Source: Chiloscyllium plagiosum
Lineage: Eukaryota
Reading direction: 5' to 3'
DNA: 64,000 nt
Assembly: GCF_004010195.1 (NCBI RefSeq)
Contig: NC_057719.1
Location: forward strand, 28,064,710 to 28,128,709
Below are positions 319 through 62,140 of this stretch, one piece after another; the first letter of the stretch is position 1, and every line of letters begins with the position of its first letter. The notes beneath the pieces are model-generated. The model was not told the DNA's origin. It saw nothing but the letters and a program-made list of their open reading frames with translations, and searched no databases. A program made the translations under genes and the position numbers.

Positions 319-630
319 GAACAGGGTGGCCATATGGGGGACTTTAACTTCCCCAACATTGACTGGAAATGCTATAACTCTAGTGCATCGGATGGATCAG
401 TTTTTGTCCAATGGGTGCAGGAGGGTTTCCTGACGAAGGGCCAACAAGAGGGGAGGCCACACTGAATTTGGTACTTGGTAATGAACCAGGCCAGGTGTTT
501 GATTTAGGGGTAGGTGAGCGCTTTGGAAGAGTGAACATAATTTGGTTACGTTTAGTTTAGCGATGGAAAGGGATAGGTACATGCCACAGATCAAGAGCTA
601 TATATGGGGAAGGGGAATTATATTGTATTA

Positions 631-758
631 CTGATGGAGGGCTTTCGCCCGAAACGTTGATTTTTCTGCTCCTCGGATGCTGCCTGAACTGCTGTGCTTT
701 TCCAGCACCACTCTACTCCAGAATCTGGTTTCCAACATCTGCAGTCATTGTTTTGGCC
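631..758 (+). mobile_element. Short PLE terminal-repeat fragment beginning at a hammerhead-like core
   Basis: ctgatggagggctttcgcccgaaacgtt followed by the recurrent gatgctgcctg...ctgctgtgcttttccagca motif; interrupts CR1. Confidence 0.7.
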
Positions 759-1127
759 TAAGACTTAGGAGGCATAGAACGGGGAAGCAAACTGCAGCAG
801 AAGGGGACAATCGAATTATGGAGCTGGTTTAAGGAACAGATATTGCATGTCCTTGATAGGTATGTCCCTGTCAGGTAGGGAGGAAGTGATAAGGTAAGGA
901 AACCGTGATTTACTAAAGAAATTGTATCTCGTGTTAAGCAGACAATTGTGGCTTATGTGACATTGAGACAAGATGGAGAGATACAGATTAGCTAGGAAGG
1001 ATTCAAAGAGAGAGTTAAGAGGAGCATGGAGGGGACAAGAGCAGTCTTTAGCAAGTAGAACAAAGGAGAACTCTAAAGCTTTCTCTAGGTATGTGAGGAA
1101 TACAAGGATGACTAGGGTAGGAATAGG

Positions 1128-1254
1128 AGAAAGTGAGGACTGCAGATGCTGGGGTACCAGAGTTGAAAAATGTGGTGCTGGAAAAACACAGCAGGCCAGG
1201 CAGCATCCGAGGAGCAGGAGAATTGATGTTTTGGGCATAAGCCCTTCTTCAGGA
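1128..1254 (-). mobile_element. Short PLE terminal-repeat insertion with 14-bp TSD
   Basis: Flanked by agggtaggaatagg (1114-1127) and agggcaggaatagg (1255-1268); degenerate hammerhead at its 5' end. Confidence 0.8.
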
Positions 1255-1593
1255 AGGGCAGGAATAGGGCCAGTTAAAGACACAAGTGGCAAGTTGTGTG
1301 TGGACCCTATGGAGATCGGAGAGGTGCTAAACGAATATTTCCCATCAGTTTTCACTCAGGAAAAGGAGAACATTGTAGAGGAGAAGACTGAGATACGGGC
1401 TATTAGACCAGAAAGGATTGAAGTTAGTAAGAAGGAGGTGTTATCAATTCTAGGTGGTGTGAAAGTAGATATGTCCCCTGGGCCGGATGGGATTTATCTG
1501 AGGATTCTCTGGGAAGGTAGGGAAGAGATAGCAGAGTTGAAACTTTATTGCTGGAACAGCACAGCAGGTCAGGCAGCATCCAGGGAACAGGAG

Positions 1594-1629
1594 ATTCGAC
1601 GTTTCGGGCACAGGCCCTTCTTCAGGAAT
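1594..1629 (-). ncRNA. Minimal type I hammerhead ribozyme motif (intact)
   Basis: AUUC-CUGAAGA-A-GGGC-CUGU-GCCC-GAAA-C-GUC-GAAU: stem I AUUC/GAAU, stem II GGGC/GCCC, palindromic ACGU stem III, GUC cleavage triplet. Confidence 0.75.
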
Positions 1630-1913
1630 GAGCAGAGAGTGTTCAGCAGGAGAAGATAAAAGGTAGGGAGGAGGGACTTGGAGGAGGGGAGTTGGCAGAG
1701 GAGATGACCTGGGGTGTGCAGTGAGAGAGGGACTCACTGAAATCTTTGTAGAGAGAGGCAGAGAGCTTCTTCAAGGAAGGCATCCTTGTAAGAGGATTCG
1801 CAGTAGGTTGAAATCTTCGAGGAGAAAGTGAGATCTGCAGATGCTGGAGATCAAAGTTGAAACTTTATTGCTGGAACAGCACAGCAGGTCAGGCAGCATC
1901 CAGGGAACAGGAG

Positions 1914-1949
1914 ATTCGACATTTCGGGCACAGGCCCTTCTTCAGGAAT
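1914..1949 (-). ncRNA. Minimal hammerhead ribozyme motif, second tandem copy
   Basis: Same as 1594-1629 except GAAAUGUC; offset by 320 nt. Confidence 0.62.
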
Positions 1950-2133
1950 GAGCAGAGAGTGTTAGATCTTTGTAGAGAGAGGCAGAGAGCTTCTTCAAGG
2001 AAGGCATCCTTGTAAGAGGATTCGCAGTAGGTTGAAATCTTCGAGGAGAAAGTGAGATCTGCAGATGCTGGAGATCAAAGTTGAAACTTTATTGCTGGAA
2101 CAGCACAGCAGGTCAGGCAGCATCCAGGGAACA

Positions 2134-2170
2134 NNNNNNNNNNNNNNNNNNNNNNNNNNNNNNNNNNNNN
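2134..2170. other. Assembly gap (N run)
   Basis: 37 N bases. Confidence 0.99.
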
Positions 2171-2395
2171 CAGACTGGGATCACGGATAGTTAGGTCAGG
2201 ATCACGGTGAAGCAGACTGGGATCACATTTAATTAGGTCAGGATCACAGTGAACCAGACTTGACCTCTCCGCCTCCATCCTACTCCGACCTATCACCCTC
2301 ACCTTGACCTCTTTCCACCTATCACATTTCCAACGCCCCTCCTCCAAGTCCCTCCTCCCTACCTTTTATCTTCTCCTGCTGAACACTCTCTGCTC

Positions 2396-2431
2396 ATTCC
2401 TGAAGAAGGCCCTGTGTCCGAAACGTCGAAT
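2396..2431 (+). ncRNA. Minimal hammerhead ribozyme motif, inverted copy with weakened stem II
   Basis: AUUC-CUGAAGA-A-GGCCCUGUGUCC-GAAACGUC-GAAU. Confidence 0.58.
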
Positions 2432-4949
2432 CTCCTGTTCCCTGGATGCTGCCTGACCTGCTGTGCTGTTCCAGCAATAAAGTTTCAACTTTGATCTCCA
2501 GCATCTGCAGACCTCACTTTCTCCTCCTAAGAGATAGCAGAGCCTTTGGCTTTGATCTTTGGGTCGTCATTGTCTACAGGTTTAGTACCAGTGGACTGGA
2601 GGATTGCAAATGTTGTACCCTTGTTCAAGAAGGGCAGTAGAGATGACCCAGGTAATTATAGACCAAGGGAGCCTTACGTCTGTTGCAGGAAAAGTTTTGG
2701 ACAGGATTATAAGGGAAATGATTTACAATCATCTCACAAACAACAATTCGATTGGAGATAGTCAACATGGCTTTGTCAAGGGCAGGTCGTATCTCACAAA
2801 CCTCATTGAGTTTTTTGACAAGGTGACCAAGCATGTAGATGAGGGTAGGGCAGTTGATGTGGTATACATGGTCTTCAGTAAAGCCTTTGATAAGGTTCCA
2901 CATAGTTGGCTGTTCGAGAAAATGCAGAGGCATGGAATTGAGGGTGATTTAGCAGTTTGGATTAGAAACTGGCTTTCTGAAAGAAGGCTGCGAGTGGTGG
3001 TTGATAGAAAATATTCAGCCTGGAGTCCGGTTACTAGTGCCACAAGGATCTGTTTTGGGACCACTGCTGGTTGTCATTTTTATAAATGACTTAGATGCAG
3101 GCATAGGTGATAGTTTAGTAAATTTGCAGATGACACTAAAATCGGTGGAGTAGTGGATAGTATGGAAAGATGTTCCAGGTTGCAGAGGGACTTGGATAAA
3201 CTGCAGAATTGGTCTGAGAGGTGGCAGATGGAGTTCAATGCAGATAAATGTGAGCTGATTCAATTTGGGAAGATTAACAGGAAGGCAGAATACTGGGTCA
3301 ATGGAAAGATTCTTGGTAGTGTGGATGTGCAGAGGGATCTTGGAGTCCATGTACATAGATCCCTGAAAGTTACCACCCAGGTGGATAGTGCTGTTAAGAA
3401 GATGTACAGTGTGTTACGGTTTATTGGTAGAGGGATTGAGTTCTGGAGCTGTGATGTCATGCTGCAACTATACAAGCGACCACACTTGGAATATTGTGTA
3501 CAGTTCTGGTTGCCCCATTACAGGAAGGATGTGGAAGCATTGGAAAAGGTGCAGAGGAGATTTACCAGGATGTTGCCTGGTATGGAGGGATAATCTTATG
3601 AGGAAAGGCTGAGGGACTTAGGTCTGTTCTCATTGGAGAGATAGAGGCTAGGAGAGAATTTAATAGAGACATAAAAGATGATCAGAGGATTAGATCGGGT
3701 GGACAGTGAGTGTCTTTTTCCTAGGATGACGACGTTGGGTTGTATGAGGGAGCAGAGCTGCAAATTGAGGGGTGATAGATTTAAGACAGCTGTCAGAGGC
3801 AGGTTCTTTATTCAGAGAGTGGTAAAGGCATGGAATGCTCTGCCTGCCAATGTAGTTAACTCAGCCACATTAGGGGCATTTTAACAGTCCTTGGATAAGC
3901 AAATGGATGATGTTGGGATAGTGTAGGGGGATGGGCTTAGACTAGTTCAAAGGTGAGCGCAATATCCAGGGCCGAGGAGCCTGTTCTGCACTGTATTGTT
4001 CTGTGTTCTATGAGTCTAAACCAAAGAAATGACTGATGGCTTATTTCTGTATCATATCGTGCTGTGGTACTTTGTTCTTTTGATTTATTCAGGTCATTCT
4101 CCAGGTTCTTTCCCCACCCTGATAACTATCATATTCTCGTGGGTCTTACAATGCTGTTCTAAGATGCTCTGCTGATGTACACAACAGACATGTTGTCTGT
4201 TTAATTTTTCCAATGAACCTGACCAGGAATACAATGTGTAAACCATCTGGGTTGCACTGGGTTAAAGTGCTGTACCATTCAGGTACTTTCCCGGAGTACG
4301 AAGACAGTGCTATCTGTTGCAAGGCATGAGATAAGGAATATTTCGCTTTTATTAGGGTCAATTTCAGAATGGAAACAATTCTAATAGAATTGCCTCTTTC
4401 ATTCGGTTGGTAGATTTATCTTTTTTAAAATTTATTTGTGGGATGTGGACATCGCTAGCTGGCCAGCATTTATTGCACATCCCTAGTTGCCCTTGAGAAG
4501 GTGATGGTGAGCTGTCTTCTTAAATTGCTGCAGTCCATTTATCTCTCGATAAACAAAACAATGTAAAACAATGTCCAGAACAGCACTGAGCCAAATAACA
4601 CTGTAAAATGTCAGGTCCACTTCCTACTCTGTGAATTACAAGAAAAAAGTAGACTTACATTTATGTCACACCTCAGGACATCCTAAAGCAGTTTGTAACC
4701 AAGGGAGTACTTTTGAAGCCTAGTCATTTGTGTAATGGAAGAAATGCAGCAAAAAACTTGTGCAGAGATGGCAGGAAACAACATTACAGTCAGTGCAGCA
4801 CTACCTCAGCACTGGACTGAGAGTCACAACTGAATTAACTGATCTCAGTCTAGCCACCAAATGAAGGTGCTCGAATTGGGGTCAGCATTTCAAAACCAGC
4901 CCCTGCTCAACATGTCAGACCAATGATCGACTGGAACTTCTGTACAAAC

Positions 4950-6310
4950 AGCTCTCATTAAAGAGAAAAATTATATTGGTTGTGACTGTGCAAATGGTAA
5001 CAATTCCCTCATTATCCTGTTTGAACTGTTGACTGCTTTTGAGACATGGTTGACCACAGCATTCTGTTCAAACATTTCCCCACTCTCATCCAATTGGGGG
5101 GAACTGCTCTTGACAGGTTCCATACCTATTTCTTTACTCTCAGCCCCAGTTTAATTTACAAAGACTTCTCTTCTTGCTCCTGCACCATGATCTCTGGTGG
5201 GCATCAATGGTCAATCCTTCGCCCATCCCATTCCTCATCTACACAGTGCCCCTCAGTGATATTATCCACAAACAGTGTTAGTTTTCATATACATGCTGAT
5301 GACAGCCAGCTCTCTCTCACCACCACCTATTGTGACTCTTCTACTGTTGTTATCTCACATCCAATACTGGATAAGAATAATGTTTCTCCAAGGAAACACT
5401 GAAGCCATGGTTTGGGCCCTGCTCCATGCTCTGTTCCCCAGCTACTGCCTCCATCCTTCTGTCTAGCTACTGTCTGAAGCAAAATCAGACCTGCTGGCAA
5501 CTTTGAGGTTATGTTTAATCCCAAAATGAGATTTCAAATACATTTGTACATTCTTACAAAGAGCAACAATTTCTAAGATTGCCTGACTTCACCTTTGTCT
5601 CAGCTTACCTGCTGCAGAAAGCTTCACTCATAACTTTTTTTACTGCAAGATCTGACTATTCCAACCCACTCCTGACTTGCCTTCCACATTCTACACTCTC
5701 AACTGGAGCTCATTCAAAACTCTGTTTCCCTATGTCCCATTTTGCACATTGTACCATCCCCTAACACTCCTGTGCTCACTCATCTACAATGGCTCCTGCG
5801 CAAGCGACACCTCCATTTTAAAATACATATCCTTGTTTTTCAATGTCACCGTGACTTCTCCCCTCACTATCTCAGTAATTTGCTTCAAAACAACAAGCCT
5901 TCGAGATCTCTGCACACCTCTCATTCTAATCTTATGAGCATTCTGATATTCAAGGAAGAGATAGATACATTGTTTTGGTTTTAAAGCCATCAAGGGGTAT
6001 AGATAGAAAGTCAGAATATGACATTGAGGTAAGATCATATTGAATGGTGCAGCAGACTCAAAGGGCCAAAGGGCAGGCTCCTGCTCCTAATTTCCATGTT
6101 TCTATTCCCGTTCTTAAAGTCTCCAATGACTGTGCCAAACTCTGGAACTCCCTATCTACACCCTTTACCTCACTCTTCTCCTTCAAAAGAGCTCTTTAAA
6201 GTTGAACTCTTTGACAGAGCTTTTGACTTGATGTCTCCTCATGGGGCCTAATGTATTATCATGCTGCTATGATGTTGTTCTATGATGTTAAAGCTGCTAT
6301 AAAAATACAT
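4950..6310 (+). mobile_element. Old L2-type LINE RT/3' fragment with a short CR1-like tail inserted at about 5950-6105
   Basis: Degenerate AF..VDHSIL, GTALD.FH.Y, FHIHADDSQL and DYSNPLL motifs. Confidence 0.7.
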
Positions 6311-6592
6311 TTATGGATATTGGACTCGAGCAGAAACACTCACTGTCAGTTAATAGCTTCAGGAGAGAAGGGATTCAAGTGGAGCAAAGCAATTCCTCAG
6401 TGCCATAACAAATCAGTAGCATGTAGAAAAGGCATTTGCTAAATGAGCCTTGGAGAGACAGTTAATATTGCATGCACAATTTTAGGGCTATTTCAAGATC
6501 AGAAATGTTAATTCTATTCCTGTCGAGACAACCTTGCTCCTGAGGGTTGATTGAGGGTCGAATAAAAGGTTAGGGAATGGGTCTTCACTTAC

Positions 6593-62140
<55,548 letters not shown>

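What the first reader, a model, noticed from the sequence alone, without database searches (positions are those of the whole stretch)
631..60777. Three distinct short repeat families each carry a covarying minimal hammerhead ribozyme
Seen: three families with otherwise dissimilar sequence keep CUGANGA, one extra nucleotide, stem II, GAAA and an NUH triplet. Stem I differs but pairs in each (AUUC/GAAU at 1594-1629; CAC/GUG at 60621-60655; CCA/UGG at 34852-34891). Stem II also differs but pairs (GGGC/GCCC; GGAGC/GCUCC; GUUAC/GUGAC). Stem III is a 4-nt palindrome, ACGU or AGCU, broken in the third. About ten further degenerate copies occur. Established: Penelope-like elements carry minimal type I hammerheads thought to act as dimers. 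Inference: this genome hosts an abundant, probably unannotated population of ribozyme-bearing non-autonomous PLE derivatives. The motif class is known; these particular families may not be described.
Basis: partly seen in the sequence, partly recalled or inferred. Interest (0 to 1): 0.75.

Follow-up and report, generated by a model that had tools for sequence, protein, structure and literature searches.

The report
Penelope hammerheads, U6-marked at cut site
The three ribozyme-like repeats are real but are broken-off ends of three ordinary Penelope-type jumping genes in a shark-like genome, a known pairing; elsewhere in this genome U6 RNA copies are joined to two of these families exactly at the predicted cut, which likely records these weak ribozymes cutting in living cells.

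Summary
Four strict minimal type-I hammerheads lie in the window (0.01 per shuffle) among 20 related segments. The reading 'non-autonomous derivatives' mostly fails: every family traces upstream into a reverse transcriptase/GIY-YIG frame. A and B are Neptune-type Penelope-like elements (one A copy has an 893-codon open frame; one locus shows pLTR-ORF-pLTR); C is Poseidon-type, with its endonuclease remnant in the window. The short repeats are 5'-truncated or fold-back insertions with tail, target duplications and individual junctions. A random 764-kb sample gives one piece per 3.6 kb; core positions are kept while N7 and loop II vary. 61 of 115 family-A pieces begin at the ribozyme's 5' edge, 7 near the cut, so most were likely copied from uncut RNA. 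Yet all 7 U6 joins to the family-A end, and 1 of 1 to B, fall exactly on the predicted scissile bond. The window's 321-bp 'retrozyme' tandem is probably assembly gap-filling. The class is published (Cervera and De la Pena 2014); this scan has already reported all of this, U6 joins included, on other DNA of this genome.

The parts
1594..1629 (-). Family A (Neptune-type, young subfamily) minimal hammerhead, intact; predicted cut between 1598 and 1597
1914..1949 (-). Second family A hammerhead 320 bp upstream, stem III 4-mer decayed to AUGU
1537..2528 (.). One young family A fold-back insertion: left arm on minus (pLTR piece, ORF start, tail, repeated; N gap 2134-2170), right arm 2260-2528 on plus with tail; target duplication at 1523-1536 and 2529-2542
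   Evidence: 13 bp by script, 14 by eye
1695..1825 (-). 5' start of the Neptune A reading frame (MPSLKK...) that follows the pLTR tail; its join to a truncated pLTR at 1695 defines the doubtful 321-bp unit
2396..2431 (+). Family A hammerhead of the right arm, stem II broken by one mismatch
627..746 (+). Old family A stub starting 4 nt before the core, with tail
1130..1257 (-). Old family A stub starting about 5 nt before the core, with tail; 9-bp target duplication
13889..14122 (.). Family A fold-back pair (arms start at about -10 and -2)
27944..28156 (+). Diverged family A piece
28432..28520 (-). Family A stub lacking the first core bases, no tail
34273..34396 (+). Distant A-like stub of a further subfamily (weak profile score, 21 bits)
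34479..34760 (+). GIY-YIG endonuclease remnant of the Poseidon-type family C element, with stop codons
   Evidence: PF01541, E 9e-5 on the first 34 codons
34852..34891 (+). Family C minimal hammerhead; stem III 4-mer ACAU; predicted cut between 34888 and 34889; element ends near 34971
44248..44434 (.). Family B fold-back pair, both cores truncated
54337..54547 (.). Family A fold-back pair
58898..58975 (+). Distant A-like 3' piece without ribozyme core
60571..60777 (.). Family B (Neptune-type) fold-back insertion: minus arm without tail, truncated plus arm with tail; 13-bp target duplication at 60558-60570 and 60778-60790
60621..60655 (-). Family B minimal hammerhead, intact; predicted cut between 60624 and 60623

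Best explanation
The three repeats are the hammerhead-bearing terminal repeats (pLTRs) of three endonuclease-positive Penelope-like retrotransposons, two Neptune-type and one Poseidon-type, left as truncated and fold-back insertions, and their ribozymes likely cut only a minority of transcripts. Shown: motif, link to RT/GIY-YIG frames, tail, target duplications, variable junctions, pile-up of 5' ends at the ribozyme's front edge, U6 joins at the scissile bond. Inferred: transcription starts at about the first base of stem I; the element's protein nicks both DNA strands and starts reverse transcription inside the RNA at either end of the 30-40 nt tail; when it uses the 5' pLTR it runs off the uncut RNA end after about 90-125 nt, giving the short stubs, and two such cDNAs give the fold-backs. 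Inferred: the ribozyme folds with a partner copy (palindromic ACGU/AGCU) or with help from the element's protein and sometimes cuts, leaving a 5'-OH end that an RtcB-type ligase joins to U6 before retrotransposition. The run-off reading and the U6 lead came from earlier notes of this scan and were re-tested here.
For: Coding link: A, 893-codon open frame with RVT_1 and GIY-YIG ending just before the window-type pLTR (L161), and pLTR-tail-ORF start-RT-EN piece-pLTR with a hammerhead in both repeats plus an inverted copy (L334). B, GIY-YIG upstream in L081 and L093. C, GIY-YIG in the window and RT motifs in L008 and L016. Cys linker CX4CXXC in A and B, none in C, the Neptune diagnostic named in PMC8557442 (passages). 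Structure: inverted truncated copy, tail on one end, target duplication, as in PMC8557442 and PMC3846280. 3' ends of A are bimodal, around +86 to +98 and +111 to +121, as expected from the two initiation sites of PMC11167929. Random sample of 764,252 non-N bases: 21 strict motifs against 0-1 in 10 shuffles, all 21 with the extra base; 215 family segments. In 116 random A copies non-CpG core bases match the majority at 96.6%, N7 49.6%, loop II 75.1%, downstream non-CpG 90.4%. 5' ends: 61 of 115 in 21 nt at the front edge, 7 of 115 in 8 nt around the cut; flanks of the non-inverted ones are unrelated to each other. U6: 6 of 6 pattern matches (5 loci) have the one spacing of 26 allowed that puts U6's last U on the cut; two more A loci from the Rfam search agree; 1 of 1 for B, after an A. 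No microhomology at these joins.
Against: No cleavage was assayed. One RNA run showed no pile-up of read ends at the cut on either stretch (706 and 1,153 reads, both strands, mixed copies). No U6 join was found for family C, and B rests on one locus. U6 also joins other targets: two internal Neptune positions and many SINE-like repeats among the 48 U6 matches. The dimer fold is not the predicted minimum-energy structure (A -13.1 versus -18.3, B -16.3 versus -30.3 kcal/mol). An untemplated G at the start was seen in only 6 of 10 non-inverted copies beginning at -4, two of them explained by mini-hairpins, so the start site is not proven. Clades were assigned by motif, not by a tree. For the lizard Poseidon element, ribozyme mutants did not affect insertion in vitro and no RNA-seq ends were found at the cut (PMC11167929).
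Confidence: 0.85

Rival explanations
1. The short repeats are self-standing non-autonomous PLE derivatives (retrozymes) that amplify through self-cleaved or circular RNA; the 321-bp head-to-tail unit at 1537-1860 would be one such family.
For: The unit's junction recurs in 12 of 30 loci sampled from 168 exact matches and 40 scored copies are 99-100% identical. Older A copies show natural pLTR-ORF start-pLTR partial tandems with two same-sense ribozymes 300-450 nt apart. Retrozymes are reported in one chondrichthyan (bioRxiv 10.64898/2026.07.22.740005).
Against: 18 of 24 such loci end at an N gap with an identical edge; 10 of 12 junction loci contain a gap, against 3 of 18 without the junction. 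In three DNA runs from three studies contigs break at 1694/1695 and continue with the ordinary pLTR on one side and the ordinary ORF on the other; no listed piece spans the join, but only the longest pieces are shown. Other gap-fill signs abound (in-frame loops in L128, L161, L164). B junctions are all different; C carries coding sequence.
Confidence: 0.12
2. Same elements, but the hammerhead is kept as a folded or protein-binding signal at the transcript start, and its cleavage is an incidental side reaction with no role in transposition.
For: Most copies begin upstream of the cut; stem I of the commonest A subfamilies has a U-U mismatch; low in vitro activity of minimal hammerheads (PMC4209133); core mutants do not impair insertion in vitro (PMC11167929).
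Against: The catalytic bases, not the tolerant N7, are what stays fixed across subfamilies and across clades only 22-34% identical in protein; U6 joins hit the scissile bond in 8 of 8 A and B loci.
Confidence: 0.3
3. The motifs are chance matches in repeats.
For: The core is only about 13 fixed bases, and loose patterns give unrelated hits, one inside a kinase exon.
Against: 4 strict hits against 0.01 expected; 21 against 0.2 in the random sample; majorities of copies gathered by homology alone fold as hammerheads in all three families.
Confidence: 0.01

Closest known systems
Minimal type-I hammerheads (min-HHR) in pLTRs of metazoan PLEs, including fish Xena, Poseidon and Neptune (Cervera and De la Pena 2014, PMC4209133; parts 1-2 of 4 read, supplement file 2 searched, file 1 not searchable)
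   Same: Core, extra base before stem II, G10.1-C11.1, palindromic stem III, short stem I, several families per genome, mostly single motifs on truncated PLEs, some pairs on opposite strands.
   Different: Copy number: about 1e5 strict motifs by extrapolation, against about 4,000 and 9,000 in coelacanth and Xenopus (their descriptor differs). No shark is named in the parts seen.
Neptune and Penelope/Poseidon endonuclease-positive PLEs (Craig et al. 2021, PMC8557442, passages; Arkhipova et al. 2013, PMC3846280, passages)
   Same: RT plus C-terminal GIY-YIG, Cys linker in Neptune only, pLTR, adjacent inverted truncated copy, 30-40 bp tail on one end, target duplications, solo pLTRs.
   Different: Here most insertions are cut down to about 90-125 bp and start at the ribozyme's front edge.
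Anolis Poseidon PAc (Frangieh et al. 2024, PMC11167929; parts 1-2 of 4 read)
   Same: Two internal RT start sites that define the tail, both strands nicked, hammerhead at the pLTR-ORF junction.
   Different: In PAc the ORF starts at stem II; in family A the first in-frame ATG lies about 150 nt behind the core. They found no RNA ends at the cut; here genomic U6 joins mark it.
Non-LTR retrozymes (Cervera and De la Pena 2020, PMC7229834, passages; Li et al. 2026, bioRxiv 10.64898/2026.07.22.740005, parts 1-3 of 5, supplements closed)
   Same: Type-I hammerhead, PLE pLTR origin, about 300-bp tandem unit in the doubtful 1537-1860 repeat.
   Different: The window's pieces are dispersed stubs and fold-backs of autonomous elements; a real tandem family was not established.
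U6/LINE-1 chimeras made by RtcB ligation (Moldovan et al. 2019, PMC6789731, passages)
   Same: Full U6 3' end with five U joined to a retroelement RNA end that should carry a 5'-OH.
   Different: In L1 the acceptor is variably 5'-truncated; here it is one bond, the predicted ribozyme cut.

Membership tests
Minimal type-I hammerhead of metazoan PLEs | CUGANGA and GAAA core with NUH triplet | tested here: met
Minimal type-I hammerhead of metazoan PLEs | One extra base before stem II and G10.1-C11.1 pair | tested here: met
   21 of 21 random strict motifs have the extra base; family majorities open stem II with G-C
Minimal type-I hammerhead of metazoan PLEs | Palindromic positions in place of stem III | tested here: met
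   ACGU 11, AGCU 5, decayed forms 5 of 21; majorities ACGU, AGCU, ACGU
Minimal type-I hammerhead of metazoan PLEs | Located in the pLTR of a PLE | tested here: met
Minimal type-I hammerhead of metazoan PLEs | Self-cleavage as dimer or with protein help | not testable with these tools
   Indirect only: U6 joins at the cut; no read-end pile-up in one RNA run
Neptune PLE (families A, B) | RT followed by C-terminal GIY-YIG in one frame | tested here: met
   A. B: GIY-YIG and upstream frame seen by translation and 29% identity to A; Pfam gave no hit on the B piece and its RT core was not fetched
Neptune PLE (families A, B) | CX2-5CXXC linker between RT and EN | tested here: met
   CNRRRCNTC in A, CHGRRCKTC in B
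Neptune PLE (families A, B) | Placement in the Neptune clade on an RT tree | not tested
   No named reference set was available
Penelope/Poseidon PLE (family C) | RT plus C-terminal GIY-YIG without the Cys linker | tested here: met
   (broken copies read with X at stops); no tree built
Endonuclease-positive PLE insertion | Inverted truncated copy, tail on one end, target duplication | tested here: met
Non-LTR retrozyme / non-autonomous PLE | Non-coding unit with fixed junctions amplified on its own, in tandem | tested here: not met
   B junctions all differ; C carries EN; A stubs vary in both ends
Non-LTR retrozyme / non-autonomous PLE | 321-bp unit exists as a multi-copy family in real DNA | tested here: inconclusive
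   Frequent in the assembly but tied to gaps; contigs of three runs break at the join
Non-LTR retrozyme / non-autonomous PLE | Expressed as linear and circular monomer RNA | not testable with these tools
   Only a single-cell poly(A) run gave reads

The most novel reading that the evidence does not exclude
The genome holds a fossil record of minimal PLE hammerheads cutting in the germ line: U6 snRNA is joined at the exact scissile bond in at least two Neptune families (8 loci) and probably a Poseidon-like one, while most of the roughly one million stubs were copied from uncut RNA that starts at the ribozyme's first base. Cut and uncut templates could then be counted from DNA alone, family by family.
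Probability: 0.65. Interest if true: 0.6.

Novelty: new member of a known kind. Interest (0 to 1): 0.33.

Why it matters
The motif and its host elements are known, so the finding as written is ordinary. Two things lift it. These pieces fill this genome at about one per 3.6 kb and include a young family with long open frames, which makes a good source for PLE biochemistry. And whether minimal PLE hammerheads cut in vivo is an open question in the papers read; U6 joins at the scissile bond give indirect evidence and a direct test (RT-PCR for U6-PLE chimeric RNA, 5'-OH and cyclic-phosphate sequencing in gonad). A practical point: Rfam misses these motifs and calls the fold-backs microRNA-like at relaxed thresholds.

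Tried and rejected
Rfam scan: no hammerhead hit at E<=5; the microRNA hits on the fold-backs are all below gathering score and were rejected. DNA search with 2260-2400 returned nothing because common words are skipped; an exact pattern then gave 2,817 matches. Run search: no RNA holder listed, no evidence either way. X22 laid 0 reads (no test); X21 gave both strands with opposite bias in ORF and pLTR and no start or end pile-up, so expression of the element itself is not shown. Contig depths were not used as copy numbers. Dimer folding energies did not favour the active fold and were not used as support. The cap-G signature stayed inconclusive (6 of 10). No U6 join for family C. Per-position table failed once and was redone. 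In one search one B locus was a false parse (L068) and one did not parse (L062); both were dropped. In one search two of 16 regions (L233, L246) gave no U6 tail match and were not read. Cross-family stem covariation from descriptor hits is circular, so only homology-gathered majorities were counted; no R-scape-type statistic was run. A 1-kb identical segment next to young A copies was first read as captured host DNA, then judged more likely gap-filling. Literature: no paper held 'U6 snRNA', 'Penelope' and 'hammerhead' together; one search listed none on U6-PLE chimeras; two searches found only a review using 'shark' for the shape; one search found no shark PLE paper. The library lacks most subscription papers; Lunse et al. 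2016 was seen only as a reference; bioRxiv supplements were closed and may list these families.

Full report
Observation. A strict descriptor finds four in the window (minus 1625, minus 1945, minus 60652, plus 34855), against one hit in 100 dinucleotide shuffles. Profiles find 20 related segments. Rfam reports no hammerhead at E<=5 and scores the fold-backs as weak microRNA look-alikes. The window lies on a 96-Mb contig of a 3.56-Gb assembly. The nearest proteins to the family A frame come from sharks and a ray, 56-71% identical, so I call the genome shark-like. An exon of a protein kinase C eta-like gene lies at 57167-57340 on the minus strand.

Family C. The window itself shows a GIY-YIG remnant directly before the hammerhead. 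Twenty genomic copies share one 3' end and have variable 5' ends; two extend into RT motifs. No Cys linker is present, which fits the Penelope/Poseidon clade as described in PMC8557442 (passages). The first look gave 8,916 candidates. The broken palindrome is probably CpG decay: the majority in 21 random copies is ACGU.

Family B. One exact 40-mer occurs 868 times. Among the first 30 such loci upstream homology varies from none to about 730 bp and reaches a GIY-YIG with a CHGRRCKTC linker. The window copy is a fold-back: tail-less arm, truncated arm with tail, 13-bp target duplication. The inversion junction differs in all 23 loci that parsed, of 25, so the fold-back is made anew at each insertion and is not a MITE-like family.

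Family A. A 46-mer of the young subfamily occurs 2,817 times. Copies run upstream into a frame with a CNRRRCNTC linker and GIY-YIG. A protein search scored 150 places at 91-100% identity, nearly all without stops in the match. Of ten regions fetched for their long frames, one has 893 open codons with RVT_1 and GIY-YIG; its N-terminal part holds repeats that look like assembly loops. L334 shows the textbook layout: inverted copy, pLTR with hammerhead, tail, ORF start, RT, part of EN, second pLTR with hammerhead. The segment at 1695-1825 is the ORF start.

The 321-bp tandem. It was the best candidate for a non-autonomous unit: 40 scored copies at 99-100% and the junction in 12 of 30 sampled loci of 168. 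But 18 of 24 loci end at an N gap with the same edge, 10 of 12 junction loci contain gaps against 3 of 18 others, and contigs from three studies break at 1694/1695 and continue with the ordinary sequences on both sides. Those runs share 79-90% of the sampled words and may be this or a close species; only the longest pieces are listed, so absence is not proven. I judge it mostly gap-filling around perhaps one real locus. Natural partial tandems do exist in an older subfamily: in 7 of 18 non-junction loci an ORF-start piece of variable length is followed by a pLTR that begins at the ribozyme's front edge.

Abundance and constraint. Eighty 10-kb stretches taken at round coordinates (764,252 non-N bases) hold 21 strict motifs, against 0-1 in ten shuffles, and 160 A-like, 32 B and 23 C segments. 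That is one piece per 3.6 kb, about 1e6 pieces and 1e5 strict motifs if extrapolated. In 116 A copies the non-CpG core matches the majority at 96.6%, N7 at 49.6%, loop II at 75.1% and downstream non-CpG bases at 90.4%. The majorities of all three families, gathered by homology alone, form the hammerhead with different stems. This is constraint on the active lineages; single copies decay.

How the stubs arise. 3' ends of A cluster at the two ends of the tail, matching the two internal RT start sites shown for the lizard Poseidon protein, which nicks and extends both strands (PMC11167929, parts 1-2 of 4). 5' ends pile up at the ribozyme's front edge: 61 of 115 main-clade pieces within 21 nt, in both inverted (39 of 64) and single copies (22 of 51), while 7 of 115 start in the 8 nt around the cut (its offsets run one higher). 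Flanks of the single copies are unrelated, so this is not a missed subfamily. I infer run-off at the start of an uncut transcript. This reading was offered by earlier notes of the scan. Their untemplated G was only suggestive here: 6 of 10, two with mini-hairpins.

Does the ribozyme cut? Earlier notes reported U6 joins at the cut; I tested this. An Rfam search gave 48 U6 matches; I read 30 loci and 14 of 16 further regions. Four loci join the A end (L207, L224, L234, L241), all at GUC|GAUU; one joins a fourth, Poseidon-like family at or next to its cut (L236); two join internal Neptune coding positions (L219, L223); many join a SINE-like repeat (label recalled). A pattern allowing 26 spacings returned 6 matches at 5 loci, all with the spacing of the cut, and each carries U6 sequence upstream. 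In total 7 of 7 A loci, and 1 of 1 B locus after an A; none for C. Two fold-backs carry the U6 join on both arms (L224, L234), which suggests a chimeric RNA template. RtcB joins U6's cyclic phosphate to 5'-OH RNA ends (PMC6789731, passages), and a hammerhead leaves such an end (established chemistry). A template jump at a cut end would also need the cut. Against this: the one RNA run with reads showed no end pile-up, and the active dimer is not the predicted minimum-energy fold.

Comparison with known systems. PMC4209133 (parts 1-2 of 4) describes this motif feature by feature, in fish Neptune and Poseidon elements, mostly as single motifs on truncated copies, with low activity even as dimers. 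PMC8557442 and PMC3846280 (passages) describe the insertion layout. Retrozymes (PMC7229834, passages; bioRxiv 10.64898/2026.07.22.740005, parts 1-3 of 5) are tandem non-coding units and include one chondrichthyan whose tables I could not see. PMC6155905, PMC6765202 and PMC8455134 were seen as passages. No held paper combines U6, Penelope and hammerhead. Repbase and Dfam could not be checked.

Verdict. Real feature; new members of a known kind; not non-autonomous families. The scan has reported the same families, the 5'-edge pile-up and the U6 joins many times on other DNA (121 findings for one word search). Interest 0.33; the in vivo cleavage reading would deserve about 0.6 and I give it 0.65.

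Noticed in passing
window 57167-57340 (-): Exon of a protein kinase C eta-like gene (best PDB match E 2.7e-28); three of the four strict ribozymes lie on the same strand, but gene limits were not mapped.
   Followed up: partly
window 2171-2259: About 90 bp of unrelated sequence with an imperfect 41-45 bp repeat sits between the two arms of the young family A insertion, beside the N gap; captured DNA or gap-fill.
   Followed up: no
L102, L113, L114, L124/L125, L127, L130: An identical non-coding segment (62 to about 990 bp, fixed 5' join, variable 3' end) follows the tail-less young pLTR in 6 independent loci of 30; three share the same inversion junction. Likely one locus reused in gap-filling; host-DNA capture not excluded.
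   Followed up: partly
L128, L161, L164, L170: Tandem loops inside Neptune A frames, in frame in L128, L161 and L164; probably assembly artefacts that lengthen apparent open frames.
   Followed up: partly
L172, L175, L176, L178, L181, L185, L200: Partial tandems pLTR-tail-ORF start (variable length) joined to a pLTR that begins at the ribozyme's front edge; they place two same-sense hammerheads 300-450 nt apart and could seed retrozymes.
   Followed up: partly
L303, L317, L329, L269; window 34273-34396: At least two further hammerhead-bearing PLE end families (stem II beginning GUCACC with triplet GUU; stem II beginning GGGUC) in the random sample.
   Followed up: partly
L205, L212, L213, L217, L222, L225-L230 and others: Many U6 copies are joined at their 3' end to the start of one abundant SINE-like repeat (label recalled); L208 is joined to a tRNA-like sequence, L219 and L223 to internal Neptune coding sequence.
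   Followed up: no
window 44316-44403 and 60608-60702: PLE fold-backs score as microRNA precursors below gathering threshold; a trap for microRNA annotation in this genome.
   Followed up: yes
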